From: Deltaproteobacteria bacterium
GTDB taxonomy: Bacteria > Desulfobacterota > Dissulfuribacteria > Dissulfuribacterales > QOAL01
Assembly (NCBI GenBank): GCA_026992735.1
Contig: JALWYO010000020.1
Span: 10,054-74,053 of the forward strand
Reading direction: 5' to 3'
DNA: 64,000 nt
In this document: positions 1 through 52,802 of the stretch, piece by piece
Numbering within the stretch: the first letter of the stretch is position 1
How the letters are laid out: every line of letters starts with the position of its first letter
Program-made: the position numbers and the translations under genes
Notes under the pieces: model-generated
Databases searched by the model: none
Told to the model about the DNA's origin: nothing
Seen by the model: only the letters and a program-made list of their open reading frames with translations

Positions 1-175
1 CCACCATGGCAGCGCCCAGATTGAATCCTGTCACGTCATGAACAAAGACCGCACCGCAAGTACACATGCCATATTCAAAATCTCCCCGGCGCATGGGCTC
101 CATTTCTTTGGGGCGTTCCAGCCTGGCATTACAAAAAGGACAGCGAGGCTCAATAATATCATAACCTGAAGCCAT
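1..175 (-). CDS. small Cys-pair (zinc-ribbon-like) protein, N-terminal part only; gene runs off the left edge
   Basis: ATG at 175-173, 18 nt downstream of the TPR gene stop. Reads MASGYDIIEPRCPFCNARLERPKEMEPMRRGDFEYGMCTCGAVFVHDVTG... Absent from the ORF track because it is edge-truncated. Confidence 0.35.
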   Translation of the reverse strand, partial: MASGYDIIEPRCPFCNARLERPKEMEPMRRGDFEYGMCTCGAVFVHDVTGFNLGAAMV

Positions 176-193
176 AAATATACTCCCGGCCTG

Positions 194-829
194 TCAGTCT
201 GTGCTGGAATTAAGCTTGGCCTCAAAATCAGGGTGCACCGGGTAACCAAGCTGCTTTGCCCTCGATGCCGCTTCAGCGGCCTTCTTGATGTCCCCCTTGT
301 AAAAATAGGCAACTGCCAGATTATTAAAGGCCAGCCCGAACTCCGGTGCAAGACTGGTTGCCTTTTCCGCTGACTCTACAGCCTTGTCGTATTCTTTCAG
401 CTCCACCATAACAGTTGCATAATTGGTAAGGGCCGGCACCATATCGGGCTTCTCTTCAAGGGCCTTTTCAAAGTATTCTGCTGCCTCTGACCACTTACCA
501 AGCTGAAGGTAGGCAGAACCGATATTCGCCATGGCCTCTGCAGCGGCAGGATGTGCCTTCAGGGCCTCCTTGTTTTCCCTTATCCCTTCCTCTAACCTTC
601 CGAGCTGAAAAAAGAGCGTGCCCAGGTTTATCCTGATTTCAAACGAGGCTGGATCTATCTGCAGTGCCTTTTGAAACTCGCCTATGGCATCATCTGACCT
701 GCCTGCCTTCCAGTAGGCAAGGGCAAGCCGGTGATGGGCTACCACCGAGTTCTTATTTTCTGCCAGTTCTTTCTCAAGATCCTGTATTATTTTATCAAGC
801 TCACCTGATTTTATGGGGTTTTTAGCCAT
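194..829 (-). CDS. tetratricopeptide (TPR) repeat protein
   Basis: Repeated 34-aa A..Y...G....A...F..AL motifs. Start chosen at MAKNPIK (ATG 829) because AGGAGG lies 5-10 nt upstream; the track ORF extends to 871. Confidence 0.8.
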   Translation of the reverse strand: MAKNPIKSGELDKIIQDLEKELAENKNSVVAHHRLALAYWKAGRSDDAIGEFQKALQIDPASFEIRINLGTLFFQLGRLEEGIRENKEALKAHPAAAEAMANIGSAYLQLGKWSEAAEYFEKALEEKPDMVPALTNYATVMVELKEYDKAVESAEKATSLAPEFGLAFNNLAVAYFYKGDIKKAAEAASRAKQLGYPVHPDFEAKLNSSTD

Positions 830-984
830 TATTCCTCCTGACATTCCACCATCTTGGATGGACATTAGCAATCTTTTTTAATATCCTACACTGCTATCAG
901 CATAGAAGAATTACAAAATTAACATAAAAATTCGAAATTCCTACATACCCGGGTGACTTATTTCCAATCTCAGGGGCGCCAGCC

Positions 985-1203
985 ATGATAAAAAATATAT
1001 TGAATGAATCAGCGAACAAGAATAAGGAAAGGGATTTAAACTGCATCCTGTGTGGCAGCCCAGCCAAACTTAAAGGCCGCTGAGCCAATGCTACCGTGAC
1101 CTGCAGGTCTTGCGGCGTCGAACTCCCTGCCTCACAGTACCGGGATCAGATTGACGAGATGAAGGATAAGTTGATCTGCGAATTTAATCAAGAACAAAAC
1201 TAA
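985..1203 (+). CDS. candidate 72-codon zinc-ribbon protein with in-frame TGA (possible selenocysteine) or disrupted pseudogene
   Basis: ATG 985 ... CILCGSPAKLKGR-TGA(1081)-ANATVTCRSCGVELPASQYRDQIDEMKDKLICEFNQEQN-TAA 1201. The CxxC...CxxC pair is split by the TGA. A hairpin at 1094-1115 starts 10 nt after the TGA. The ORF ends in the terminator at 1202-1229. Confidence 0.3.
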
Positions 1204-1229
1204 ACAGGCAGCCTAAAGGCTGCCTGTTT
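1202..1229. terminator. bidirectional intrinsic terminator between the small + strand ORF and dsrP
   Basis: Perfect 12-bp stem AAACAGGCAGCC / GGCTGCCTGTTT with TAAA loop. A/T runs lie on both sides, between convergent genes. Confidence 0.7.
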
Positions 1230-1252
1230 ATAATAATTCCTGTTGCAGAAGA

Positions 1253-2413
1253 TCAGATACGCTGTTCTTCTTCCCTTACCGATACCGCAACCTTGTACAA
1301 TATCGTCAGAATCAATCCTCCCACAGCCCATATTGCAGTGGCTATCGTTATTTCAGGGAAGGTAGGATGGTACTCTGTTATAACCTCGAGAGGGTTAGGC
1401 ACGAAACCGCCAATGACCAACCCGACACCCTTGTCTATCCAGGTAGCGAGAAATACGCAGGCACATCCTATCGCAAGCCATAAAGGATTACGCCTGATAG
1501 GAGGAACCAGCAGGATAAATATACCAGCCAAGCCTATTACTATGCACGCCCTCATGAAAGGCACCAAGTTTCCGTATTCGCCTATTCCCCAGAACAGGTA
1601 CTCCAAGGTAGCTTTATGGCCGGGAATATTACTATAAAAGGCCGTGAAAAACTCCATGCCCATGAAGAAAAAGTTCACGATCATGGCATAGCAAATAGTC
1701 CTGGCAACATTCTGAAGCGCATCCTCACCTGCATCAAACTTGGTCACCTTTCTTAAAAAGAGAAGAAGCATGACAAGCAGAGAAGGACCTGCTGCAAAGG
1801 CGGATGCCAGAAAACGAGGGGCCATGATGGCTGTCAGCCAGAAATGACGGCCTGGAAGACCTGCATACAGAAATGCCGTAACCGTATGGATACTGATGGC
1901 CCATGGTATAGAAAGATATATAACCGGCTTTACCCACCGTGGACAGGGCAGACCCTTCTTGTCTGCAAGAAGGGTATTGTACCCACAGATGATGTTGATC
2001 AGCAGGTAGCCATTGAGCACGATCATGTCATAGAAGAGCATTGAATGAGGCGTGGGATGAAGCACCACGTTCATCATCCTCATGGGCTGCCCAATATCCA
2101 CTACAATAAAAAGCAGGCACATGATTACCGCAGCTATGGCAATAAACTCCCCAAAGACCACCACCTTTGCATACTTGGTATAATGATGGAGATACTTTGG
2201 AATGACCAGCATGACAGCACCTGCTGCCACACCAACGAAGTATGTAAACTGGGCGATATAAACGCCCCAGGAGATGTCCCTGCTCATTCCGGTGATACCC
2301 AAACCTACTTTCAACTGGTAAAGGTAGGCAATGAACCCGGCCCCGATTATACAGAGGAGAAATATCACCCATCCCCAGTAAACAGATGATCCTTTTAATG
2401 CCTTTTCAATCAT
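1253..2413 (-). CDS. dsrP: DsrP, NrfD/PsrC-family integral membrane quinone-interacting subunit of DsrMKJOP
   Basis: 386 aa, about 10 predicted TM helices. Last gene of the M-K-J-O-P order. Confidence 0.85.
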   Translation of the reverse strand: MIEKALKGSSVYWGWVIFLLCIIGAGFIAYLYQLKVGLGITGMSRDISWGVYIAQFTYFVGVAAGAVMLVIPKYLHHYTKYAKVVVFGEFIAIAAVIMCLLFIVVDIGQPMRMMNVVLHPTPHSMLFYDMIVLNGYLLINIICGYNTLLADKKGLPCPRWVKPVIYLSIPWAISIHTVTAFLYAGLPGRHFWLTAIMAPRFLASAFAAGPSLLVMLLLFLRKVTKFDAGEDALQNVARTICYAMIVNFFFMGMEFFTAFYSNIPGHKATLEYLFWGIGEYGNLVPFMRACIVIGLAGIFILLVPPIRRNPLWLAIGCACVFLATWIDKGVGLVIGGFVPNPLEVITEYHPTFPEITIATAIWAVGGLILTILYKVAVSVREEEQRI

Positions 2414-2425
2414 GATGACCTCACA

Positions 2426-3247
2426 CTATATCAGGTAAAAAACTGATGGTTTGGTTCCAAGTTCCAGCTTGCGACGCAGGGATACTCTCTCCCGTAGGAT
2501 CTTTCGCACGTTGGAATTCTCGTCTGCCAGATTTCCAAAATGCATAACATCCGGGCAGGCCTCCACGCACCCCGGCTTCTTGCCTTCAGCAAGGCGCTCC
2601 ACACAGAAGTTGCACTTTTCTACTACGCCGCGCATCCTGGTTGGAAATCTCTTGTTGAGTTTTCTGCCCTTGGCCATTTCCTTCTTGAGCATCACTCTGG
2701 GATCCAACCAGTTGAAACTCCGGGAACCGTAGGGACAGGCAGCCATGCAGAACCTGCAGCCAATGCACCTGTGATAATCCTGCGCCACTATGCCGTCCGG
2801 ACGCCTGAATGTAGCCTCAACCGGGCAGACCCTGGCGCATGGCGGCTCGTCGCAGTGGTTGCACATGAGCAGGAAAGGCGAATGCTCCAGTATCTCGTCA
2901 TACTCATTATAGCTGTCTGGAAACGCATGTTCAAATTCGTCTTCCCATATCCACTTTATCTCGTTCTTGGGATCTCCCCAGTTAGGCACATTGTGAAGAT
3001 GATGGCACGTATGAACTATCTTCTCTGCCTTTTCCCTGGTAAGGGCCTTTATGTCAATCAACATGGCAAGACGTGTCTTAGGCCCAGTCTCTTCGGCCTT
3101 TTCATGGTGTTCACCATGATGATGTCCATGTTCCATCTCTGCATCAACCCGTCCCGGCTTGAGCAGCTCAAAGGCACCGCTACTGCCAAGCCCAACAAGC
3201 GTTGAAAGACCAGCTACTTTTAAAAATTTTCTTCTATCCATGCTCAT
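2426..3247 (-). CDS. dsrO: DsrO, periplasmic (Tat-exported) FeS ferredoxin-like subunit
   Basis: Twin-arginine signal MDRRKFLKVAG. Cys clusters CNHCDEPPCARVCP and CIGCRFCMAACP. ATGA overlap with the dsrJ stop. Confidence 0.85.
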   Translation of the reverse strand: MSMDRRKFLKVAGLSTLVGLGSSGAFELLKPGRVDAEMEHGHHHGEHHEKAEETGPKTRLAMLIDIKALTREKAEKIVHTCHHLHNVPNWGDPKNEIKWIWEDEFEHAFPDSYNEYDEILEHSPFLLMCNHCDEPPCARVCPVEATFRRPDGIVAQDYHRCIGCRFCMAACPYGSRSFNWLDPRVMLKKEMAKGRKLNKRFPTRMRGVVEKCNFCVERLAEGKKPGCVEACPDVMHFGNLADENSNVRKILRERVSLRRKLELGTKPSVFYLI

Positions 3248-8996: not shown

Positions 8997-9050
8997 GAGA
9001 AAAAATAATATTTAATATCAAAATTGAGTATTTTCTCAATAAAACAAGGT

Positions 9051-9108
9051 TAATGATTTTGGATTAATTTCAACTCAGCAAAAGCTTGTTTAACACGAAA
9101 TACGAAGG
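9051..9108. repeat. interspersed repeat family B, truncated copy
   Basis: TAATGATTTTGGATTAATTTCAACTCAGCAAAAGCTTGTTTAACACGAAATACGAAGG matches 42153-42211 at roughly 53 of 58 positions. Confidence 0.7.
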
Positions 9109-12149: not shown

Positions 12150-12237
12150 GCCGAAGTGGCGGAATTGGTAGACGCGCTAGATTCAGGATCTAGTGGGAGC
12201 TATTCCCGTGGGAGTTCGAATCTCCCCTTCGGCACCA
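12150..12237 (+). tRNA. tRNA-Leu (anticodon CAG), CCA encoded
   Basis: Acceptor stem GCCGAAG/CTTCGGC. Anticodon arm CTAGA-TTCAGGA-TCTAG. Long variable arm. T arm GGGAG-TTCGAAT-CTCCC. Ends in A-CCA. Confidence 0.9.
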
Positions 12238-15616: not shown

Positions 15617-15943
15617 TATCGGATCTTATGCCACACCCCATCTTCAAATATGATTCAAACGAATACCGGTGGATTGGAAAAAGAGGGGGAAAACAGGCTT
15701 TATCTTTCTTAAAAGACGAGCACTATCTAACAGCCATAAATCTACAGAACATGACAACCAATGTCATCAGGACAATATTCAGTACCGCAACAACATATAA
15801 GCCGCACGAGATCTATGGCCTTTTTTGTAACAGGATAGATTCATAAATATATTCCGATCTGCATCCAGCAGAATTATTATTTATCCCCACCAACCGCACC
15901 GTAAATCCGTTTATATAAACCCAGACGGGGTTATAGCCTTAAA

Positions 15944-16123
15944 CCCCCGCCGTGCCGTGTCTGTTGGGTCTATTGAACCTGAGAAGCCTCAGGTGGGTGT
16001 CATTTCCGCTTCCAACGGAAAGGGCTGTTCTCCCTTTCCACTCTTCCACGGAGTTACGACTCCCTTGTACGGGGTGTTGGCTCAACAAACTTGCAACAGC
16101 CCACGAACACAGCAGGGAAATTT
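15944..16123 (-). ncRNA. ssrS: 6S RNA candidate
   Basis: Lies directly downstream of zapA. The minus-strand 5' end AAAUUUCCCUGCUGUGUUCGUGGGCUG resembles the E. coli 6S 5' end (AUUUCUCUGAGAUGUUCG). The 5' and 3' ends form a long closing stem rich in G-U pairs. Length about 180 nt. Ends are approximate. Confidence 0.6.
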
Positions 16124-16993: not shown

Positions 16994-17995
16994 TTATGGA
17001 CAAAAGATACGTTTCTCCTTTGATTGACAATGCCTTGTAAAAGGAGCTATGACAGATCCCGGTTCGCAAATAAAATCTTCCAGGAATGAAAAGGCACCTA
17101 TCACAGAACTCTCACCAATAACTGTCTGTCCACGCAATACCGAGTGGGGGCCGATAGTAACATCACTGCCTATTTCCACCTCGGGTTCTATATAGATAGT
17201 ATCCGGCATGGAAATGGTGACCCCGGCATCCATATGACGTTGTCTGATCCTTTTCAGCAGGACATGTTCGGCCAGAGCCAGCTGGTAACGTGAATTTACC
17301 CCAAGGGATTCTTCCTCATCGGCATATCCGAATGCATGGACAGGCATTCCGGCACGGAGGGCAATACCAACCACGTCTGTAAGATAATACTCCCCCTGAG
17401 CGTTATCACAGCCTAACTTCTGGAGTAAACCAAACACCTCTGGAGAGTTAAGGCAATAGACCCCGGTATTTATCTCTCCTATCTCCTTCTGATGTACACT
17501 GGCATCCTTCTCCTCTACGATGCCTTCAACATCTCCAGACTCATTTCTTATAATCCTGCCATATCCAGCCGGGTCCTTCAACTCTGCAGTAAGCACAGAC
17601 ACCACTGCATTGGACTGCTGATGAGCCATGACAAACCGCTGAATGGTTTTGCTGTGAAAGAGAGGACTATCTCCGCATACCACAAGCATGTTGCCGTGAA
17701 AACCTGAAAAGGCTTCCCTTGTGCAGATAACAGCATGACCTGTACCAAGTTGCTGCTCCTGAAATACCAATCTGGCACCTGATACTGAGACGTAAGACTT
17801 GACAATCCCGCCTCCATGGCCCACCACTATGACCTGACAATCCGGCCTGATACCGGCTCTTTCGAGCATGGTCATAACATGAGCTATCAGGGGCTTGCCC
17901 AGCAGGCAATGCATGACCTTGGGCATATTTGATTTCATCCTAGTGCCCTTGCCGGCAGCAAGGATCACTGCAGAAACATCAGCCTGTATTGACAT
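16994..17995 (-). CDS. GlmU-like sugar-1-phosphate nucleotidyltransferase with a short left-handed beta-helix tail
   Basis: Start at MSIQADV (ATG 17995). LAAGKGTRMKS signature. 333 aa versus about 450 for full GlmU. The upstream part of the 407-aa track ORF is read-through of the MITE. Confidence 0.75.
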   Translation of the reverse strand: MSIQADVSAVILAAGKGTRMKSNMPKVMHCLLGKPLIAHVMTMLERAGIRPDCQVIVVGHGGGIVKSYVSVSGARLVFQEQQLGTGHAVICTREAFSGFHGNMLVVCGDSPLFHSKTIQRFVMAHQQSNAVVSVLTAELKDPAGYGRIIRNESGDVEGIVEEKDASVHQKEIGEINTGVYCLNSPEVFGLLQKLGCDNAQGEYYLTDVVGIALRAGMPVHAFGYADEEESLGVNSRYQLALAEHVLLKRIRQRHMDAGVTISMPDTIYIEPEVEIGSDVTIGPHSVLRGQTVIGESSVIGAFSFLEDFICEPGSVIAPFTRHCQSKEKRIFCP

Positions 17996-18102
17996 AATCG
18001 ATGCTCCCCAATTGCATCTTACTGTAAAACAAGATAGGTATAAATTCTTAGAGGATACATCATACCCGCCTGGAATAACAGGGGGAAACAGGCTCATCCC
18101 GC

Positions 18103-18260
18103 GTAACTGATCACAGGTTCCAATGGGCTTTATTGTATATATTCCCATTCTGTAAGCGCTTGCAGGGTGCCGCAGATATAAGGCGGCGGGCGCGCAGTCG
18201 TACTCCCTGTACTTCAAGCGCCCGCCAACACAGCAGATGCGATGTCCTGTGAGCGCTTAC
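18103..18260 (+). mobile_element. MITE-like hairpin element, copy 1 (158 bp)
   Basis: About 95% identical to 51534-51691. Flanked by the 8-mers CATCCCGC (18095-18102) and CATCCAGC (18261-18268). Terminal inverted repeats GTAACTGATCACAGG / CCTGTGAGCGCTTAC. Confidence 0.8.
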
Positions 18261-18279
18261 CATCCAGCAGTATCCCGAC

Positions 18280-18315
18280 ACGAAAATAGAAAGGGCAAGC
18301 CTATGGCTTGCCCTT
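18280..18315 (-). terminator. intrinsic terminator of the atp operon
   Basis: Minus strand has an AAGGGCAAGCC-ATA-GGCTTGCCCTT hairpin followed by TCTATTTTC, 30 nt after the atpC stop. Confidence 0.65.
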
Positions 18316-18344
18316 GAACTCCTCTCCGGAATAACCAGGATAAC

Positions 18345-18761
18345 CTAACTCATCTTGCCTGCCACCTTCAACCTCGCAGTAGCACGGGCAAACGCGGCCA
18401 TTGCCCTGGCCATATCAATATCCTCTCTGCCTGCTTGAGCCTGCTGAAGACGCTTCTCTGCCCTTTCTTTGGCTCTGAGAGCCCTTTCTACGTCTATTTC
18501 TTCAGAGACCTCAGCTGCCTCTGCAAGCACTGTCATCTTGTTGTTGGAGACCTCAACAAAACCGCCACTAATGGCAAGCTTTACAATTTCTCCATCCTTA
18601 TTAAAGTGCATCTGCCCAATATTAAGGGTTGACAAGATGGGGGCATGATTTGCCATGACACCGAATACGCCTTCAGTACCAGGCACTGTACACAAGTCCA
18701 CCTCATCACTCACTACAAGTTTTCGCGGTGTGACCACTTCCAAGTTTAATTTATTGGCCAT
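18345..18761 (-). CDS. atpC: F1 ATP synthase epsilon subunit
   Basis: 138 aa, typical epsilon sequence, last gene of the operon. Confidence 0.9.
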   Translation of the reverse strand: MANKLNLEVVTPRKLVVSDEVDLCTVPGTEGVFGVMANHAPILSTLNIGQMHFNKDGEIVKLAISGGFVEVSNNKMTVLAEAAEVSEEIDVERALRAKERAEKRLQQAQAGREDIDMARAMAAFARATARLKVAGKMS

Positions 18762-38089: not shown

Positions 38090-39666
38090 TGACCAGAACT
38101 GCCGGCTGCATCAATAACTGTACTCAACACGTCCCTGCCCAGGATCCCTGCCTTCCACCTAAGCCTGGACCAGGCCAGCCTTGCATCAAAACGGGCCTTG
38201 GCCTCACTCAACTTGGTCTCCCTTACATTGGTATCCGCGGCCAGAAGCTCCACCATAAGGGCAAGACCGTTTTCGTAACGGTTTCTCAATATGCGCTGAC
38301 TCTCAACAGCCTGCCTTACAGCCTTGTGCATAATCCTGAGCTGCTTTATGGCTGTCTGAAACCCGTAAAAGGCCTTTCGGACCTCGAGTTCTATGCTATC
38401 TTCCACTTCCTTGACCTTTGCTGCCTTTCTTTCTGTCTCAGCGCTGGCAGCAGATATCCGTGCCCTGTCTCCAAAACCGTTAAAGAGATTCATGGACATG
38501 GTTGCCATAAAACTCCAGGAATCACCACCAAAATCAGCAAAGGTCTGCCTGTCCTGCTGATATACACCCTGAAGATTGAAGGAAGGAAGAAAACTAAACA
38601 AGGCCTGTTTGTGCCCGTATTCCGCCATTCTGAGCTCATCTTTTGCCATCAATATCTCGGGCCTGTGTTTTTGGGCCAGCTTAAGCCAGGAATCCAGAAG
38701 CCCTGCATCCTGACTTTCACTGTCAAGCATCTTAAGATCCCATGTCTTGTCCTGGGAGACCCCCATGGCCTTGTCAAGTGCGGCAATGGCCACAAGGAAA
38801 TCGTTCCGAGCCTTGAACAGCTGCCTTTCTACAGAGGTCTTCTGGACATCAGCGCTCAGCACGTCGGACTTGAGTACAAGGCCGGACTCGAAACGCATAC
38901 GCGAAAGTCTCTCGTGGGCAGCAGCAGTCTTAACGGCAGCCTCCAGAACAGCCACGTTCTCCTTTGCCAAGAGTGCCTGGCAATAGGCCTTTTCAACCAT
39001 AAAGAGCACTGCCTGGCCTGCCTGGGTGATACCAAGCCCTGATATATCTTCAGCCAGCACCGAAGTCTTGTACCCTATGTATTCGCTGCCCTGATTAAAG
39101 AGAGGCTGAATCATTACTATCCTGGCCTGCCAGTTGTCACGGTAGTCAGGATCATTTAGTCTATCCACGGCAAAATCCTGACGGGTAAACGCGGTCTGGT
39201 CCAGCTTGCTGCCAAACACCATGACCGGGTTGTTGGACCTGGCGATGCCCGCCTCTATATTTACTTTTGGAAGGAATGCGCTTATAGAACGGTTGACATT
39301 GAAGCCGGCCTTCTTTCTGGAGGCTAAGGCCTGGGTCATGACCGGGTTATTTGCAAGGGCGTTCTGAAAGGCCTGCTCTAAGTCGAGAAGATGTCCATCA
39401 TCCAGACCATAACATGGGGAAACAGCAGGGATCATGGCGAGGACTAACTGTATCAAAAAAACCAATATGGTAAACAGTGTCAGGGTATGCCTGCTGTCTG
39501 GATGCAATATTGGCAACTTCTCAATAAGTCTGTGTAAATTCTCCAGTATCTGTTTACAGGATGCTGCAGATACAAGACGGAGGACGCGCAGGCGTACTTC
39601 CTGTACTTCAAGCGTCTGACAACGCAGTATATGCGGTATCCTGTGAGCAGATACCAATATTGGCAT
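38086..39666 (-). CDS. TolC-family outer membrane efflux protein carrying an in-frame MITE insertion after codon 4
   Basis: TolC-like repeats throughout. ATG 39666 (MPIL) is preceded by GGAGGAAGGGA. Codons 5-54 are the MITE plus its target duplication. The native signal peptide resumes as PILHPDSRHTLTLFTILVFLIQLVLAMIPAVSPCYG. Alternative restarts are TTG 39507 and ATG 39435. The track ORF starts at 39696. Confidence 0.75.
   Translation of the reverse strand: MPILVSAHRIPHILRCQTLEVQEVRLRVLRLVSAASCKQILENLHRLIEKLPILHPDSRHTLTLFTILVFLIQLVLAMIPAVSPCYGLDDGHLLDLEQAFQNALANNPVMTQALASRKKAGFNVNRSISAFLPKVNIEAGIARSNNPVMVFGSKLDQTAFTRQDFAVDRLNDPDYRDNWQARIVMIQPLFNQGSEYIGYKTSVLAEDISGLGITQAGQAVLFMVEKAYCQALLAKENVAVLEAAVKTAAAHERLSRMRFESGLVLKSDVLSADVQKTSVERQLFKARNDFLVAIAALDKAMGVSQDKTWDLKMLDSESQDAGLLDSWLKLAQKHRPEILMAKDELRMAEYGHKQALFSFLPSFNLQGVYQQDRQTFADFGGDSWSFMATMSMNLFNGFGDRARISAASAETERKAAKVKEVEDSIELEVRKAFYGFQTAIKQLRIMHKAVRQAVESQRILRNRYENGLALMVELLAADTNVRETKLSEAKARFDARLAWSRLRWKAGILGRDVLSTVIDAAGSSGH
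39513..39654 (+). mobile_element. MITE-like hairpin element, copy 2 (142 bp, diverged)
   Basis: Flanked by a perfect 8-bp direct repeat CAATATTG (39505-39512 and 39655-39662). Conserved apical loop GCAGGCGTACTTCCTGTACTTCAA. The stems differ from copies 1 and 3 by compensatory changes. Confidence 0.75.
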
Positions 39667-41786: not shown

Positions 41787-42152
41787 GATATTTTCACCTG
41801 GATTTTAAACATAAGATAGACAAACCAGCCCACATCTGCTGGTATATGACAATGGCTTAACTTGCCATTTTGCAGGATATTCCCCTTTCCATCGACATGT
41901 CAAAAAAACTTTCTGCAGAAACAGACATGAAGCAATGATAAGAGATAAGGATCGAGAGCAGCTTTTCCTGTGACGTATTGCCTTGGAAAAGCCGCCCGCT
42001 GCAAAAGACAGGCAGGCGGCTGACAAGGAAGGCGGAAGTCAGAGAACCTTGCGAAAGGAGGGATTAATAGTTGAGGGGAGTGTTCTCTTCTTCCTTGATC
42101 ACCTTTTACAGACTGTTTTTTTATAACGTAACTTCTCATTATAAATCAGGGA

Positions 42153-42265
42153 TAATGATTTTGGATTACTTTCAGCTCAGTAAAAGCTTGTTTAACACGA
42201 AGTACACGAAGACCACGAAGTGATACTAATATAAATTCTTCGTGTCCTTCGTGAACTTTGTGGTT
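42153..42265. repeat. interspersed repeat family B, full copy with CACGAAG palindrome
   Basis: The first 58 nt match 9051-9108. They are followed by CACGAAGTACACGAAGACCACGAAG ... CTTCGTGTCCTTCGTG, which forms an imperfect hairpin. Confidence 0.7.
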
Positions 42266-42762: not shown

Positions 42763-43071
42763 GTCGTGATCTCCTTATTTTAGAATCCTGATTTAAATAG
42801 CACCCTTATTAAGAATGATCCTGTTTCCATAATAGAGACAATGCCAGCAAAAGTCAAGATAAATATGATTTTTTTTATCTCTATTATAACAATCACAAAA
42901 CAGTTACATCTTATTTCTAAATCGAGTCATTCATGACAACGGACATTTTTGCTTACATTTTTGTAGTTTTTTGTTTATAGCTCTTACTTTTTTGTTCAAC
43001 AAAATCAAAATATAAAAACCGAAAAGCAAAAACATTATTTCAATTCAATATGTTATATGAATTTGCACATG

Positions 43072-43086
43072 TGGCATACAGCTTGC
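43072..43086 (+). promoter_or_regulatory. sigma54 (-24/-12) promoter candidate
   Basis: TGGCATACAGCTTGC fits TGGCAC-N5-TTGC with exact spacing. It sits 100 nt upstream of ATG 43186, behind a ~300-bp AT-rich tract. Confidence 0.55.
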
Positions 43087-43185
43087 TTTTATCCTAATAA
43101 ATTCTTCAATATTGAGTGTGGACGCGCAAATATCCACCGGGAGGGAAAAATGAAACATGAAAAATTCTGCAAAAGGAGACACGAG

Positions 43186-44001
43186 ATGAACAGCAAAAAA
43201 GGGACACTTATCTTAGCCGTAATTTTATTGTTATTCATGGGAATTTCCGTGGCCATTCCGGCCAGGGCTGACGAGGAAAGGCCTTCAGCAGACCTTTCTT
43301 TAAGCCTTCTGAGCGCCTACATATGGAGGGGACAGGAACTCAGCAAAAACAGCCTGGTGATACAACCATCAGCCACCTTTTCATACAAGGGTTTTTCAGC
43401 AAACATCTGGGCCAACTATGACACGGATCTTTACAAGGACATCGACGAGCTGGACAACCTTACAGAAACGGATTACACACTTACTTATGAACACGATTTC
43501 GGCATGATAGCTGCCCAGGCAGGCTACATATATTATGCCCTCAACCAAGCGGATGACAGCCAGGAATTATTCGTCTCTGCCACTTTGAATACCATATTGT
43601 CGCCAACCTTCACGATATACAGGGAATTTGCCCATTATCCCAGCACTTACATGACCCTTGAAATATCCCATGGATTTGATTTGCCTGCCGGAATCACCCT
43701 CGACATGGGCCTGCTCGGCAGCGCCATGTTCTCAGATGATTCAGCAGCCTACCCGGACCCGGATGATGCCAGTGACGAGTACTCCGGGCTCCACCATGGA
43801 AAGGCCTCAATATCTATGAATATCCCTTTTACATCTTTCATACACGATCCATCTGCAAGGTATTTTTCAATCACCCCAGAGATAGACTGGGTGTTTCCCA
43901 TCAGTGGTGACGGCTCCAAGGACATGTCAAACAGGGCCCTGGGGGATACCCATCACAACAATTTTGTGTACGGTGGCGCCACATTGAGTCTCTCGTTCTG
44001 A
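43186..44001 (+). CDS. outer-membrane beta-barrel protein of unknown function (TIGR02001/Gcw_chp-like by recollection)
   Basis: Start at MNSKKGTL (RBS AAAAGGAGA). Signal peptide ...ISVAIPARA. Alternating beta-strand pattern. Ends in the aromatic terminus TLSLSF. Confidence 0.7.
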   Translation: MNSKKGTLILAVILLLFMGISVAIPARADEERPSADLSLSLLSAYIWRGQELSKNSLVIQPSATFSYKGFSANIWANYDTDLYKDIDELDNLTETDYTLTYEHDFGMIAAQAGYIYYALNQADDSQELFVSATLNTILSPTFTIYREFAHYPSTYMTLEISHGFDLPAGITLDMGLLGSAMFSDDSAAYPDPDDASDEYSGLHHGKASISMNIPFTSFIHDPSARYFSITPEIDWVFPISGDGSKDMSNRALGDTHHNNFVYGGATLSLSF

Positions 44002-44040: not shown

Positions 44041-44137
44041 GCTCGCAAGTTTGCCGAAGATGCAAAGAGGGAGCACGCAGACGTACTTTGGCACTTCAAA
44101 CGCCTAACAACAAATCAGATTCGGTAAACTTGCGAGC
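44041..44137 (+). mobile_element. MITE-like hairpin element, copy 4 (degenerate, hairpin module only)
   Basis: Stem GCTCGCAAGTTTGCCGAA / TTCGGTAAACTTGCGAGC encloses the loop GCAGACGTACTTTGGCACTTCAAACGC, which is homologous to the loop of copies 1-3. No clear target duplication. Confidence 0.5.
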
Positions 44138-50562: not shown

Positions 50563-51516
50563 TCATTGTATGATTTCCCTTATAAAATAGATGTGCTTCC
50601 CGCTGGCCTCATAATAGGTACGGATTATGAGTTCTGCCAAAAGACCTATGCCAGAGAGCAACAGACCACAAATAATGAAGAGGACTCCGAGTATAAGCAG
50701 GGGCCTGTTGCCTATATCCATGCCCATGAACAGCTTGAGAAAGGTGAGATACAACTCTATTAGAATGCCTGCGGCCAGCATGAGCCCACCCGTCAACCCG
50801 AAGAACTGCAGGGGCCTGGTTGCGAATTTCTGGAAGAACAACATGAGCAGGAGATCCAGTATAACCCTGTAAGTCCTGCTGATGCCGTATTTACTGCTCC
50901 CTCTAGACCTTGGATGATGCCTGACCACTACCTCTGCATATCTGGCACCCTGGAGGCTGGCCAGAACAGGGATAAACCTGTGCAGCTCCCCATAGAGCAG
51001 CAGATTCTTGGCAACCTCCTGCCTGTATGCCTTTAAAGAGCAGCCGTAGTCATGGAGTTCAACGCCGGTGGTCTTGGCTATAAGCCTGTTGGCTATCCTT
51101 GATGGTATCTTTCTGGACAGCATGGCGTCTTTCCTGTCCTTGCGCCAGCCGCTGACTATATCGTAACCCTCTTCCAGTTTTTTCACGAGCATGGGAATAT
51201 CAGCAGGATCATTCTGCAGGTCTCCATCCATGGAAACCACAACCTGGCCGCCAGCCAGGTCAAAACCAGCGGTCATAGCGGCACTCTGGCCAAAATTCCG
51301 CCTGAATATAACGGCCTTCAGGGCTGGATACTTGGCCTTAAGATCCCTCAGCAATATATTGGTATTGTCTGTGCTGCCATCATCTATCACGATTATCTCA
51401 AAAGGCCTGCCCATGCTCTCCAAACTGGAATTCACCTTCTGCAAGAGTTCGGGAAGATTCTCCGCCTCGTTAAAAACAGGGATCACTACTGAGATATAAG
51501 GGGTTTGACTTTCCAT
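50563..51516 (-). CDS. GT2-family polyprenyl-phosphate glycosyltransferase (ArnC/DPM1-like)
   Basis: ISVVIPVFNE...DDGSTD...DGDLQNDP motifs and two C-terminal TM helices. Confidence 0.85.
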   Translation of the reverse strand: MESQTPYISVVIPVFNEAENLPELLQKVNSSLESMGRPFEIIVIDDGSTDNTNILLRDLKAKYPALKAVIFRRNFGQSAAMTAGFDLAGGQVVVSMDGDLQNDPADIPMLVKKLEEGYDIVSGWRKDRKDAMLSRKIPSRIANRLIAKTTGVELHDYGCSLKAYRQEVAKNLLLYGELHRFIPVLASLQGARYAEVVVRHHPRSRGSSKYGISRTYRVILDLLLMLFFQKFATRPLQFFGLTGGLMLAAGILIELYLTFLKLFMGMDIGNRPLLILGVLFIICGLLLSGIGLLAELIIRTYYEASGKHIYFIREIIQ

Positions 51517-51533
51517 TGATGATTACCTCGCAG

Positions 51534-51691
51534 GTAACTGATCACAGGTTCCAATGGGCTTTACTGTATATATTCCCATTCTGTAAGCGCTCACAGGGTG
51601 CCGCAGATGTAAGGCGGCGGGCGCGCAGTCGTACTCCCTGTACTTCAAGCGCCCGCCAACACATCAGATGCGGTGCCCTGTGAGCGCTTAC
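51534..51691 (+). mobile_element. MITE-like hairpin element, copy 3 (158 bp)
   Basis: Perfect 8-bp direct repeat CCTCGCAG at 51526-51533 and 51692-51699. Terminal inverted repeats match 12/15. The 109-nt hairpin at 51583-51691 has a 24-nt loop at 51625-51648. Confidence 0.85.
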
Positions 51692-51773
51692 CCTCGCAGG
51701 ATGCATGAAAGCGCTGCCATCCTCTATATTTTCTCTCTGCAGGAAATGGCAGAAAAGCATTCCCGGAGCCATA

Positions 51774-52802
51774 TTAATTTGCAAAGGCAGGGCTATAAAA
51801 TTCAAAATTCGAGAGGGTTTTTCCTGCTCCTTCTACCACTGATGTAAGAGGAGACTTCGGCTGACAAACCTTAATACCTGTCCTTTTTTCAAGGAGATCA
51901 GGGAACCCTCTGAGAAGGCTTCCTCCCCCTGTGAGCAATATGCAGCTTTTCTCAATCGACTCTATAAGACCGGGTGGCAAAGCAGAGATACAATCCGTCA
52001 CCGAGGCTATCACATGGTCAACAGTATCTGCAAGGGCCTCCTGTATCTCCTGACCCGTTACTATCCTGTAAGAGGGGATCTTTTCCTCTACATCCTGACC
52101 AGCGACCTCCATGGTACTGCCAAAAGTCTCGTAAGAAGCTGCAGTGGAGCCAATCTCCCATTTAACTCTCTCCGAAGTTATGGGGCCGATGCGCAATCCG
52201 TGCCTTTCCAGCATGAAATGGGCAATGGCCTTGTCCATTTCATCACCTGCAATCCTCCTCGACCTGCAAAAAAGGTAGGCCATCTCTGCAATAACTGCCA
52301 CTTCAGTAGTGCCACCGCCGATATCCACCACCATGCTGGGTTCCTTCTGTGCCACGTTTACCCCCGCACCGATGGCAGCGGCCATGACTTCTTCCAGGAG
52401 TGAAATCCTGCTGAAACCTGCGCCCCTGGCTGCCTCAAGAAGGCTCCTCTTTTCTACCTGGGTAAGCTGGGATGGCACACACAGGACGATTCTGGAAGAA
52501 AAAACAGGCTTGACCCTCCTGGCAGCATCCACTACAGACTGAAGAAACAGGGCTGCTGCATCAAAATCTTCAATTACCCCGTGTTTCAGCGGCCTTACAA
52601 CATTTATTCCAGGTGGATTTCTGCCAAGAAATCTCCGCGCCTCTCCGCCAAAAGAGATAACATTATGGTCCTGGTCAAGGGCTACCACAGACGGCGTATT
52701 AAGAACTATGCCTTCTCCCTGCAGAAAAATAAGAGTATTGGCAGTGCCAAGATCCAGGGCAACATCCTGCTTTATAAACCTTTTCAAATTTCCTAATGCC
52801 AC
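51774..52802 (-). CDS. MreB/Mbl-family actin-like ATPase (paralog; no mreCD adjacent)
   Basis: 342 aa. DLGTANTLI, VDIGGGTTEVAVI and LTGGGSLLRG phosphate/adenosine motifs. Confidence 0.85.
   Translation of the reverse strand: MALGNLKRFIKQDVALDLGTANTLIFLQGEGIVLNTPSVVALDQDHNVISFGGEARRFLGRNPPGINVVRPLKHGVIEDFDAAALFLQSVVDAARRVKPVFSSRIVLCVPSQLTQVEKRSLLEAARGAGFSRISLLEEVMAAAIGAGVNVAQKEPSMVVDIGGGTTEVAVIAEMAYLFCRSRRIAGDEMDKAIAHFMLERHGLRIGPITSERVKWEIGSTAASYETFGSTMEVAGQDVEEKIPSYRIVTGQEIQEALADTVDHVIASVTDCISALPPGLIESIEKSCILLTGGGSLLRGFPDLLEKRTGIKVCQPKSPLTSVVEGAGKTLSNFEFYSPAFAN

What the first reader, a model, noticed from the sequence alone, without database searches (positions are those of the whole stretch)
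51526..51699. 158-bp hairpin MITE-like element with perfect 8-bp target-site duplication just upstream of the GT2 gene
The interval 51534-51691 is bracketed by the identical 8-mer CCTCGCAG (51526-51533 and 51692-51699).

Its termini are imperfect inverted repeats. The left end is GTAACTGATCACAGG, and the reverse complement of the right end is GTAAGCGCTCACAGG (12/15 matches).

Its right two thirds (51583-51691) fold into a ~109-nt hairpin. There is an outer ~23-bp stem, an inner GC stem (GGCGGCGGGCGC/GCGCCCGCC) and a 24-nt loop, GCAGTCGTACTCCCTGTACTTCAA.

A near-identical 158-bp copy lies at 18103-18260, and diverged copies lie at 39513-39654 and 44041-44137. All four are in the same orientation.

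TSD, TIR, small size and lack of any ORF are the classical signature of a non-autonomous DDE-transposon derivative, and I do not recognise this family.

The left duplicate of the target site contains the GAGG that serves as the likely RBS of the glycosyltransferase gene. The element therefore separates that gene from whatever lay upstream.
Basis: seen in the sequence. Interest (0 to 1): 0.68.

Follow-up and report, generated by a model that had tools for sequence, protein, structure and literature searches.

The report
IS66-like MITE carrying conserved hairpin
This is a 158-bp non-coding "jumping" DNA element inserted between the mreB and glycosyltransferase genes; it is an ordinary kind of element, except that the tip of its hairpin is also found, nearly letter for letter, in unrelated miniature transposons of gut Clostridia.

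Summary
The element spans 51534-51691 and is flanked by CCTCGCAG on both sides. Its ends are imperfect inverted repeats, it contains a 109-nt hairpin, and three further same-strand copies lie at the stated coordinates.

The MITE reading is supported and can be refined.
- In 36 of 57 related elements from Desulfobacterota contigs, a different 8-bp direct repeat flanks the same two ends. Chance predicts about one such case.
- Similarity to other copies stops exactly at the element boundaries.
- Relatives with the same gene order have only 5 or 120 nt between mreB and the glycosyltransferase gene, and no element.
- Ends of the form GTAAC.../...CGCTTAC plus 8-bp duplications match the published hallmark of the IS66 family. 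No transposase partner was found.

The unexpected part is the 28-nt hairpin tip, CGCAGNCGTACT(N3-4)GYACTTCAARCG. It recurs in about 277-bp, TA-flanked miniature elements of gut Clostridia. Their terminal repeats and hairpin arms are unrelated in sequence, yet the arms covary to keep the same fold.

The fold is strand-specific: 563 G·U pairs against 45 A·C mismatches. In Desulfobacterota the elements lie mostly antisense to surrounding genes (22:5).

The function of this core is not established. No Rfam family matches it.

The parts
51526..51533 (.). Left copy of the 8-bp target-site duplication, CCTCGCAG. On the minus strand it reads CTGCGAGG and contains the GAGG 9 nt upstream of the GT2 start codon.
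   Evidence: Supported by the fixed-offset 8-bp repeats in 36 of 57 related elements.
51534..51691 (+). The complete 158-bp non-autonomous element (MITE), subfamily 'a'.
   Evidence: Boundaries were defined by where similarity to copies in other genomes stops. The copy at 18103-18260 is 95% identical.
51534..51548 (+). Outer-left terminal inverted repeat, GTAACTGATCACAGG.
   Evidence: It matches the right end at 12 of 15 positions. All subfamilies start with GTAAC immediately after the left duplication.
51553..51580 (+). Small stem-loop in the spacer: AAUGGG / CCCAUU with a 16-nt A+U-rich loop.
   Evidence: MFE structure. Its sequence differs between subfamilies, and its function was not tested.
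51583..51691 (+). The 109-nt hairpin. Its outer stem is formed by an inner copy of the left repeat (51583-51598) pairing with the right terminal repeat (51676-51691).
   Evidence: Covariation: 96% of cells paired, and 13 pairs with changes on both sides. CM score 124 bits.
51624..51651 (+). Conserved apex, CGCAGTCGTACTCCCTGTACTTCAAGCG. It comprises a closing CGC/GCG, an internal loop, a GUAC/GUAC stem and a variable tip.
   Evidence: The same motif is found in Desulfobacterota and in gut Clostridia elements.
51692..51699 (.). Right copy of the 8-bp target-site duplication, CCTCGCAG.
50563..51516 (-). Family-2 glycosyltransferase gene, immediately downstream of the element in the direction of transcription.
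   Evidence: PF00535.
51774..52802 (-). mreB, the gene upstream of the element in the direction of transcription.
   Evidence: PF06723 MreB_Mbl.
18095..18268 (+). Second subfamily-'a' copy (18103-18260) with its flanking 8-mers, CATCCCGC and CATCCAGC. It lies between the atpC terminator and a GlmU-like NTP-transferase gene.
39505..39662 (+). Subfamily-'b' copy (39513-39654; ends GCAAC... and ...CAGATAC) with its flanking CAATATTG duplication. It lies in the divergent region between an outer-membrane efflux protein gene and a TPR-methyltransferase gene.
44041..44137 (+). Hairpin of a third subfamily ('c') with different arms and the same apex. It lies downstream of ORF 43057-44001 and upstream of a Usp gene.
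   Evidence: (70 bits).

Best explanation
The interval is a miniature, non-coding transposable element (MITE).

**Insertion event.** A DDE-type transposase supplied in trans cut the target with an 8-bp stagger and joined the element ends GTAAC... and ...CGCTTAC to it. This duplicated CCTCGCAG, which includes the glycosyltransferase gene's ribosome-binding site. It also pushed mreB and that gene about 166 bp further apart.

**Likely transposase.** The end sequence plus the 8-bp duplication is the published signature of the IS66 family, so an IS66-family transposase is the most likely mobiliser. This step is inferred; no such gene was found.

**Architecture.** The element consists of an outer left repeat, a spacer of about 35 nt, and a 109-nt hairpin. 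The hairpin base is a second left-type repeat paired with the right repeat.

**The hairpin core.** The inner part of the hairpin is a conserved passenger module. Its 28-nt tip is kept nearly unchanged while the arms change by compensatory substitutions. The fold is maintained on one strand only. I infer that this module acts as a single-stranded nucleic acid of the motif strand, most likely RNA, and that it matters for the propagation of the element lineage rather than for the host at each insertion site. What it binds or does is not known.
For: **Shown: it is a mobile MITE**
- 8-bp direct repeats of different sequence lie at the expected offset in 36 of 57 elements, against 0.018 expected per element (first seen).
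- Similarity ends exactly at the element boundaries.
- The element is absent from the orthologous mreB-GT2 spacer of relatives.
- Copies sit next to housekeeping genes, and no ORF is shared between insertion sites.
- Contigs frequently break at the element.

**IS66 signature**
- The literature states that IS66 terminal repeats are 20-30 bp, start with GTAAGCG, and produce 8-bp direct repeats (PMC11946415; an example repeat in PMC12888890).

**Hairpin**
- z = -8.2.
- Desulfobacterota alignment: 96% of cells paired, 13 pairs with changes on both sides, 0 of 500 shuffles as good.
- Clostridia alignment: 35 predicted pairs, 15 with compensatory changes.

**Strand specificity**
- The motif strand folds better in 82 of 84 hairpins, with means of -53.4 and -43.2 kcal/mol.
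- There are 563 G·U pairs against 45 A·C single mismatches in 168 hairpins, and the bias is the same in every arm family.

**Cross-phylum core**
- The apex motif was found in more than 94 genome loci and more than 119 metagenome loci, in Desulfobacterota and in gut Clostridia.
- The Desulfobacterota-built model hits Clostridia hairpins end to end at 28-43 bits.
- The arms of the two groups are no more alike than shuffled sequence.

**Selection at lineage level rather than at each site**
- Copies that were not retrieved through the apex motif show as many changes in the apex as in the arms.
Against: - No autonomous IS with these ends, and no IS66-type transposase, was seen in the window or in about 210 fetched loci.
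- Subfamily 'b' ends in GTATCTG rather than GTAAGCG, and the outer-left repeat of this copy is GTAACTG. The IS66 signature is therefore only partly met.
- No nucleotide-level empty allele was found. The relatives with an empty site are only about 81% identical in the GT2 protein, and their spacers do not align with the window's.
- No promoter-like or terminator-like site lies in the element, so there is no evidence that the motif strand is transcribed.
- In Desulfobacterota the motif strand is usually antisense to neighbouring genes, 22 against 5. This sits uneasily with an RNA made by read-through transcription.
- The G·U excess could in principle reflect strand-biased mutation rather than selection.
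- Many covarying pairs trace back to a few subfamily splits, so the number of independent events is small.
Confidence: 0.8

Rival explanations
1. It is a repeated host non-coding RNA gene or cis-regulatory RNA (a small RNA, processing site or stabiliser hairpin). On this view it is only passively associated with repeats, and the flanking 8-mers are incidental.
For: - The fold is strand-specific and supported by covariation.
- The apex is conserved across two phyla.
- Copies lie in intergenic positions, often right after stop codons or in 5' regions.
Against: - Variable 8-bp duplications occur in 36 of 57 copies.
- Terminal inverted repeats and sharp boundaries are present.
- The element is absent from the orthologous site in relatives.
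- There is no association with any gene class.
- No promoter or terminator lies in the element.
- Copies retrieved without using the apex motif have a decayed apex.
- No Rfam family matches.

A hybrid reading remains open, in which an RNA module rides in a MITE. That reading is the novel case described separately.
Confidence: 0.12
2. It is a REP/REPIN-type or IS200/IS605-type palindromic element, moved as single-stranded DNA by a Y1 HUH transposase (a RAYT or TnpA).
For: - It is a long, imperfect hairpin present in many copies.
- The fold is selected on one strand only, as expected for elements that act as single-stranded DNA.
Against: - Those elements make no target-site duplication and have no terminal inverted repeats. 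Here 8-bp duplications and GTAAC/GTAAGCG ends are the rule.
- In REPINs the conserved part is the stem (the REP sequence) and the loop varies. Here the reverse is true.
- GC skew gives no consistent link between element orientation and replication strand.
Confidence: 0.04
3. It is a hairpin that acts only as a transcription terminator or attenuator between mreB and the glycosyltransferase gene, copied by ordinary duplication.
For: - It is a very stable hairpin inside an operon-like gene row.
- Its position is intergenic.
Against: - No U-tract follows the hairpin on either strand, and the scan found no terminator-like site.
- Copies also lie in divergent promoter regions and downstream of a real terminator.
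- The duplications and terminal repeats show transposition.
Confidence: 0.03

Closest known systems
MITEs derived from insertion sequences, here of IS66-family type
   Same: - Small size (158 bp) and no coding capacity.
- Terminal inverted repeats and target-site duplication.
- Many dispersed copies that break assemblies.
- Ends starting GTAA(G/C), together with 8-bp duplications, as described for IS66.
   Different: - No parent IS was identified.
- There is an extra internal copy of the left repeat, which turns two thirds of the element into one hairpin.
- One subfamily has GTATCTG ends.
- The interior is a conserved structured module rather than leftover IS sequence.
Correia elements (Neisseria), and ERIC and BOX repeats: transcribed hairpin-forming miniature elements
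   Same: - Intergenic elements of about 100-160 bp with inverted repeats that fold into long hairpins.
- They can alter expression or processing of neighbouring transcripts (my own knowledge of these families).
   Different: - There is no sequence similarity.
- In those families conservation is not concentrated in the hairpin tip.
- As far as I know, they do not share a core across phyla or across different terminal-repeat types.
REPINs mobilised by RAYT transposases
   Same: Abundant hairpin-forming repeats of about 100 nt found in intergenic regions.
   Different: - REPINs have conserved stems (REP sequences) and variable loops.
- They have no terminal repeats of the DDE type and make no target duplication.
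Integron attC sites and other single-strand recombination hairpins
   Same: Imperfect hairpins whose function depends on one strand.
   Different: - attC sites are conserved at the stem base (the GTTRRRY core) rather than at the tip.
- They sit in cassette arrays next to an integrase gene.
- None of these features is seen here.

Membership tests
MITE (non-autonomous DDE-transposon derivative) | Small size (under about 300 bp) with no conserved coding capacity | tested here: met
   The element is 158 bp. Only mechanical ORFs overlap it. The hairpin arms covary, which is incompatible with coding.
MITE (non-autonomous DDE-transposon derivative) | Terminal inverted repeats | tested here: met
   This copy matches at 12 of 15 positions. 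Subfamily 'd' matches at about 16 of 20 by my own count from the sequences printed. All subfamilies start with GTAAC.
MITE (non-autonomous DDE-transposon derivative) | Target-site duplication of fixed length and variable sequence | tested here: met
   36 of 57 elements have an 8-bp repeat with at most one mismatch at the expected offset. Chance gives 0.018 per element.
MITE (non-autonomous DDE-transposon derivative) | Dispersed multi-copy family with sharp boundaries, absent from orthologous sites in relatives | tested here: met
   The mreB-GT2 spacer is 5 or 120 nt without the element in relatives. An exact empty allele was not found.
MITE (non-autonomous DDE-transposon derivative) | Autonomous partner IS with matching ends in the same genome | not testable with these tools
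   Only 64 kb of the genome is available. None was seen in the window or in the fetched loci.
IS66 family (as the source of the ends) | Terminal repeat starting 5'-GTAAGCG | tested here: inconclusive
   The right end and the inner-left repeat are GTAAGCGCTCACAGGG. The outer-left end is GTAACTG, and subfamily 'b' ends are GTATCTG. The definition is taken from PMC11946415.
IS66 family (as the source of the ends) | 8-bp direct repeats at the insertion site | tested here: met
   The definition is taken from PMC11946415.
IS66 family (as the source of the ends) | Mobilisation by an IS66-type transposase (TnpC, with TnpA and TnpB) | not tested
   No transposase gene was found near any copy. The whole genome is not available.
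REP/REPIN (RAYT-mobilised) | Conserved REP stems, no terminal repeats of DDE type, no target duplication | tested here: not met
   The stems vary and the tip is conserved. 8-bp duplications are present.
IS200/IS605-derived palindromic elements | No inverted terminal repeats and no target-site duplication | tested here: not met
   Both are present.
Integron attC | GTTRRRY / RYYYAAC core at the stem base, in cassette arrays next to intI | tested here: not met
   The stem base is GTAAGCG / CGCTTAC. The copies lie 5-21 kb apart among housekeeping genes.
Any Rfam 15 RNA family | Match to a curated covariance model | tested here: not met
   There were no hits at the gathering score. The best sub-threshold hits are chance-level matches to miRNA and plastid models.
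Intrinsic terminator | G+C-rich stem followed by a U-tract | tested here: not met
   No terminator-like site lies in or at the element on either strand.

The most novel reading that the evidence does not exclude
The hairpin core is an undescribed structured RNA module, or less likely a single-stranded-DNA module, that travels as a passenger in miniature transposons. The core comprises the 28-nt tip plus the purine-rich internal loops.

On this reading the module has been exchanged between element families that use different transposases: 8-bp-duplicating IS66-like ends in Desulfobacterota and TA-flanked ends in gut Clostridia. Chimeric hairpins joined at the tip (L009, L221) suggest that recombination at the conserved apex is how the terminal repeats get swapped.

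Its invariant tip would be the docking site for a conserved factor, or a catalytic or regulatory RNA motif that promotes the spread or tolerance of the element.
Probability: 0.3. Interest if true: 0.75.

Novelty: new variant of a known kind. Interest (0 to 1): 0.58.

Why it matters
**As a MITE.** It is a useful but ordinary annotation.
- It explains an unusually long mreB-glycosyltransferase spacer.
- It explains a duplicated ribosome-binding site.
- It explains contig breaks and at least one chimeric contig in public assemblies of this lineage.
- MITEs of IS66 type did not turn up in the literature I searched.

**The hairpin core.** The more interesting point is that the interior is not junk left over from a parent IS. 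A 28-nt hairpin tip is held constant while the arms are rewritten by compensatory changes. The fold is kept on one strand only. The same tip sits in elements with unrelated ends in a different phylum.

If this core is a functional RNA that hitch-hikes on transposons, it would be a bacterial case of a structured RNA spreading through MITEs. It would also give a concrete, testable motif for asking what makes some miniature elements successful.

Tried and rejected
- **Rfam.** Scans at the gathering score and at E up to 10, on the window and on Desulfobacterota and Clostridia loci, found nothing relevant.
- **Promoter and terminator scans.** Scans of the window copies and of two Clostridia elements found nothing inside the elements. 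An autonomous small-RNA gene and a terminator are therefore unsupported.
- **Other collections.** The viral contig scans for the apex and for the terminal repeat gave 0 hits. Plasmid BLAST of both element types gave only one chance-level match.
- **Exact empty allele.** A search for the left flank, a single CCTCGCAG and the right flank in JGI metagenomes gave 0 hits.
- **Autonomous IS.** I searched the fetched loci for inverted GTA... ends 0.6-4 kb apart. Only pairs of separate MITEs turned up.
- **Recurrent neighbour proteins.** Clustering showed that these are housekeeping genes from the same locus sampled in many metagenomes, not transposases.
- **Window 1-2761 against L010.** The same gene pair has a subfamily-'b' element in L010 and none in the window. 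The spacers are too diverged for a clean empty-site comparison.
- **Replication-strand bias.** GC skew showed no consistent relation to element orientation.
- **Resemblances considered by eye and dropped:**
  - hammerhead core (GAUGA...GAAA): no three-way junction, and not conserved in Desulfobacterota;
  - K-turn;
  - 5S rRNA: a 10-nt match in subfamily 'b' only;
  - tRNA T-loop or anticodon loop;
  - dif/Xer, IHF, LexA and sigma-54 sites;
  - oriT nick sites.
- **Literature.** Searches for the apex sequence and for IS66-derived hairpin MITEs found nothing pertinent.

Full report
**1. The observation**

- CCTCGCAG lies at 51526-51533 and again at 51692-51699.
- The enclosed 158 bp starts GTAACTGATCACAGG and ends CCTGTGAGCGCTTAC, a 12 of 15 inverted match.
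- Positions 51583-51691 form a 109-nt hairpin. The whole element folds at -82.7 kcal/mol with z = -8.2. The reverse strand gives -81.2 kcal/mol.
- The repeat finder confirms a 95% identical copy at 18103-18264 and an 81% identical partial copy at 39554-39656.
- A covariance model built later and run without filters finds four copies in the window and no more: 51583-51691, 39546-39654, 18152-18260 and 44041-44137. All are on the + strand.

The other two full-length copies have their own flanking 8-mers. The 18103 copy has CATCCCGC and CATCCAGC. The 39513 copy has CAATATTG on both sides.

**2. Genomic setting**

The element lies between two minus-strand genes.
- The gene at 51774-52802 is mreB (PF06723).
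- The gene at 50563-51516 is a family-2 glycosyltransferase (PF00535). It is followed by LPG_synthase_TM, PMT and PAP2 genes.

On the gene strand the left duplicate reads CTGCGAGG, followed by TAATCATCA and then ATG.

The other copies sit in varied contexts.
- One lies between the atpC terminator (18291-18315) and a GlmU-like gene.
- One lies in the divergent region between an outer-membrane efflux protein gene and a TPR-methyltransferase gene.
- One lies upstream of a Usp gene.

The organism is an unnamed Desulfobacterota lineage known only from MAGs and metagenomes.

**3. Is it mobile DNA?**

A scan of species-representative genomes with the apex motif returned at least 94 loci, and a metagenome scan returned at least 119. 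Four lines of evidence support mobility.
- **Boundaries.** Similarity between the window and these loci stops exactly at 51534 and 51691, at 39513-39515 and 39654, and at 18103 and 18260.
- **Duplications.** Among 57 distinct Desulfobacterota-type elements with enough flank, 36 have the 8 nt that follow the right end repeated, with at most one mismatch, immediately before the left end. The 8-mer is different at each site, for example TTGTCTCC, GTTATATG, AAGGTTTC, GTGTATCA, ACCTATTC and CTATTTTT. Chance predicts 0.018 such cases per element.
- **Orthologous site.** Relatives whose GT2 protein is about 81% identical keep the gene order IF-2B-like, GAF, MreB, GT2, LPG_synthase_TM, PMT. They have 5 nt (L117, L118) or 120 nt (L119, L120) between mreB and GT2 and no element. 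The window has 257 nt, which equals 91 + 158 + 8.
- **Assembly breaks.** Contigs of the same species often end inside the element.

An exact empty allele was not found in JGI metagenomes. The empty-site evidence is therefore at the level of gene order, not of nucleotides.

**4. Which kind of transposon?**

Every subfamily begins GTAAC just after the left duplication. On the other side the ends read, in reverse complement, GTAAGCG (subfamilies 'a' and 'd') or GTATCTG (subfamily 'b').

The literature describes IS66-family elements as having 20-30-bp terminal repeats starting GTAAGCG and 8-bp direct repeats (PMC11946415). An example repeat is GTAAGCGTCCGGCGAACTCACCTT (PMC12888890). From my own knowledge of IS families, no other family combines these two features.

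I therefore assign the ends to the IS66 type, with two reservations. The outer-left repeat and subfamily 'b' deviate from the heptamer. No transposase or full-length element was found in the window or in any fetched locus.

**5. Anatomy**

The element has three parts: an outer left repeat, a spacer of about 35 nt whose sequence is specific to each subfamily, and a hairpin. In this copy the spacer contains a small AAUGGG/CCCAUU stem-loop.

The base of the hairpin is a second, better copy of the left repeat paired with the right repeat. Moving inward, the hairpin has:
- a symmetric CAGAUG/CAGAUG segment, which would give tandem G·A pairs;
- a G+C-rich stem;
- the apex, 5'-CGC-A-GN-C-GUAC-(4-5 nt)-GUAC-U-UC-AA-GCG-3'.

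**6. The unexpected result**

The apex motif is found not only in Desulfobacterales and Desulfobulbaceae MAGs. It also occurs in many small-genome gut Clostridia, such as CP091734.1, 'Acidiphilium sp. CAG:727', UMGS1072 and Subdoligranulum sp. APC924/74.

In those genomes it sits near the right end of elements of about 277 bp.
- These elements have at least two terminal-repeat types: TGCCAGACAAGAATAAAACGAACC and GCCACAGGTGATTGCGTTCGAAC.
- They are flanked by TA. Among the first type, 23 of 51 have TA on both sides, 34 on the left and 38 on the right. Among the second type, 12 of 12 have TA on both sides.
- Their hairpin arms are A+T-rich and no more similar to the Desulfobacterota arms than shuffled sequence.
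- Several arm families exist, for example CCAAAACGCCG/CGGCGTTTTGG, CCTCTAAGCCG/CGGCTTAGAGG and CCGAAAAGTCG/...CTTTTTCGG.

The fold is nevertheless kept.
- RNAalifold predicts 35 pairs in the Clostridia set, 15 of them with compensatory changes.
- The Desulfobacterota set has 96% of cells paired and 13 pairs with double-sided changes. It beats all 500 shuffles and all slid controls.
- The model built from Desulfobacterota sequences alone matches Clostridia hairpins end to end at 28-43 bits.

No Rfam family matches either type. The motif is absent from viral contigs, and neither element type has a convincing match in plasmids.

**7. Strand specificity**

The strand carrying the motif as written folds better than its complement in 82 of 84 distinct hairpins. 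Across 168 hairpins there are 563 G·U pairs but only 45 A·C single mismatches, which are the mirror-image state. The bias is the same in every arm family.

Several G·U pairs are fixed within subfamilies, for example alignment columns 18 and 92. This points to a structure that matters in a single-stranded form of one strand.

Transcription-linked deamination would predict the opposite bias in Desulfobacterota, because there the motif strand is mostly the template strand (see section 8). Selection is therefore the simpler reading, but it remains an inference.

**8. Orientation**

When a Desulfobacterota element lies between co-directional genes, its motif strand is antisense to them in 22 cases and sense in 5 (p = 0.0015). 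Clostridia show no bias, 13 against 16. Gene calls here are rough, being the longest non-overlapping ORFs.

I read this as purifying selection against the sense orientation inside operons. One possible reason is that the uninterrupted motif-strand helix harms the transcript. This was not tested.

**9. Where selection acts**

Some copies were found by the model rather than by the exact motif, for example L063:414, L009:494, L081:410 and L055:959. In these the apex is at least as mutated as the arms. This suggests the apex is maintained in the lineage of active elements and not at every insertion site.

Other apex variants exist. One lineage has CGAAG...UUCGAG, with correlated C-to-A and A-to-G changes in the internal loop. 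It appears to be a single lineage.

Chimeric hairpins also occur, with arms of two subfamilies joined at the apex (L009; L221). This shows that recombination at the conserved tip happens, and it offers a route by which the core could acquire new ends.

**10. Verdict**

The finding is real, and the MITE interpretation is supported and sharpened to IS66-like ends. As such it is a new member of a well-known class.

What lifts it above routine is the conserved, strand-specific, covarying hairpin core shared with TA-flanked miniature elements of a different phylum. The function of that core is unknown.

My best estimate is that it is a cis-acting single-stranded module, probably RNA, that contributes to the success of the element lineage. 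I put the probability that it is a genuinely new functional RNA or DNA module at about 0.3.

Noticed in passing
L096:3400-3700 (GCA_054010355.1, JBPMZH010000073.1), compared with window 17990-18360 and 51500-51790: This public contig joins atpC directly to the GT2 gene through a hybrid element. Its left half matches the 51534 copy and its right half matches the 18103 copy. It also carries a few unique substitutions around the apex. This is either an assembly chimera through the repeat or a 33-kb deletion between the two direct copies. Another contig of the same MAG ends inside the element just after mreB.
   Followed up: partly
window 15940-16121 (-) and 12150-12237 (+): A 6S RNA gene (Rfam RF00013, 74 bits) and a tRNA-Leu(CAG) gene.
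   Followed up: no
window 9039-9103 and 42141-42205: A second, unrelated 65-nt intergenic repeat, 89% identical: ATAAAACAAGGTTAATGATTTTGGATTAATTTCAAC.... The hairpin model gives a weak hit next to the second copy, at 42198-42260.
   Followed up: no
L009:3900-4006 and L221 (around position 699): Chimeric hairpins. L009 has a subfamily-'c' 5' arm and a subfamily-'a' 3' arm. L221 has a CCAAAAC-type 5' arm and a CCTCTAAG-type 3' arm. In both, the two parts are joined at the conserved apex.
   Followed up: partly
L014:2537-2645, L064:828-936, L063:804-915: A Desulfobacterota lineage with a variant apex, CGAAGGCGTACT...GTACTTCGAGC. A C-to-A change on the 5' side of the internal loop is accompanied by an A-to-G change on the 3' side, and the neighbouring stem changes are compensated. 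This may indicate a non-canonical pair, but it appears to be a single lineage.
   Followed up: partly
L067:94-200 and L090 (start of the locus): In Clostridia, the terminal repeat of one miniature element interrupts the 3' arm of another element's hairpin, at nearly the same position in both loci. Composite elements of 574 bp (L087) and 852 bp (L077) also exist. Nested insertions therefore occur.
   Followed up: no
L093:1-166: There are 2.2 tandem copies of a 76-nt unit, made of the apex plus inner arm segments, at the very start of a Clostridia contig. This is either an assembly artefact or slippage.
   Followed up: no
L091:3857-4070: A truncated Clostridia element, consisting of the left repeat plus about 110 bp, is followed by AGGAGG and a 23-codon hydrophobic ORF (MCGWGILILFIFICYQIFKKDDK).
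   Followed up: no
window 51700-51773 (- strand): Directly after the mreB stop codon there is an ATG. In the reconstructed pre-insertion sequence it opens a 27-codon ORF ending at the TAA 7 nt before the GT2 start. In the relative L117, GT2 itself starts 5 nt after mreB. The start region of GT2 has evidently been remodelled in this lineage.
   Followed up: partly
window 694-1269, compared with L010:1358-2128: The same gene pair (65-73% DNA identity) has a subfamily-'b' element in L010 and none in the window. This is a second filled-versus-unfilled orthologous spacer, but it is too diverged to align cleanly.
   Followed up: partly
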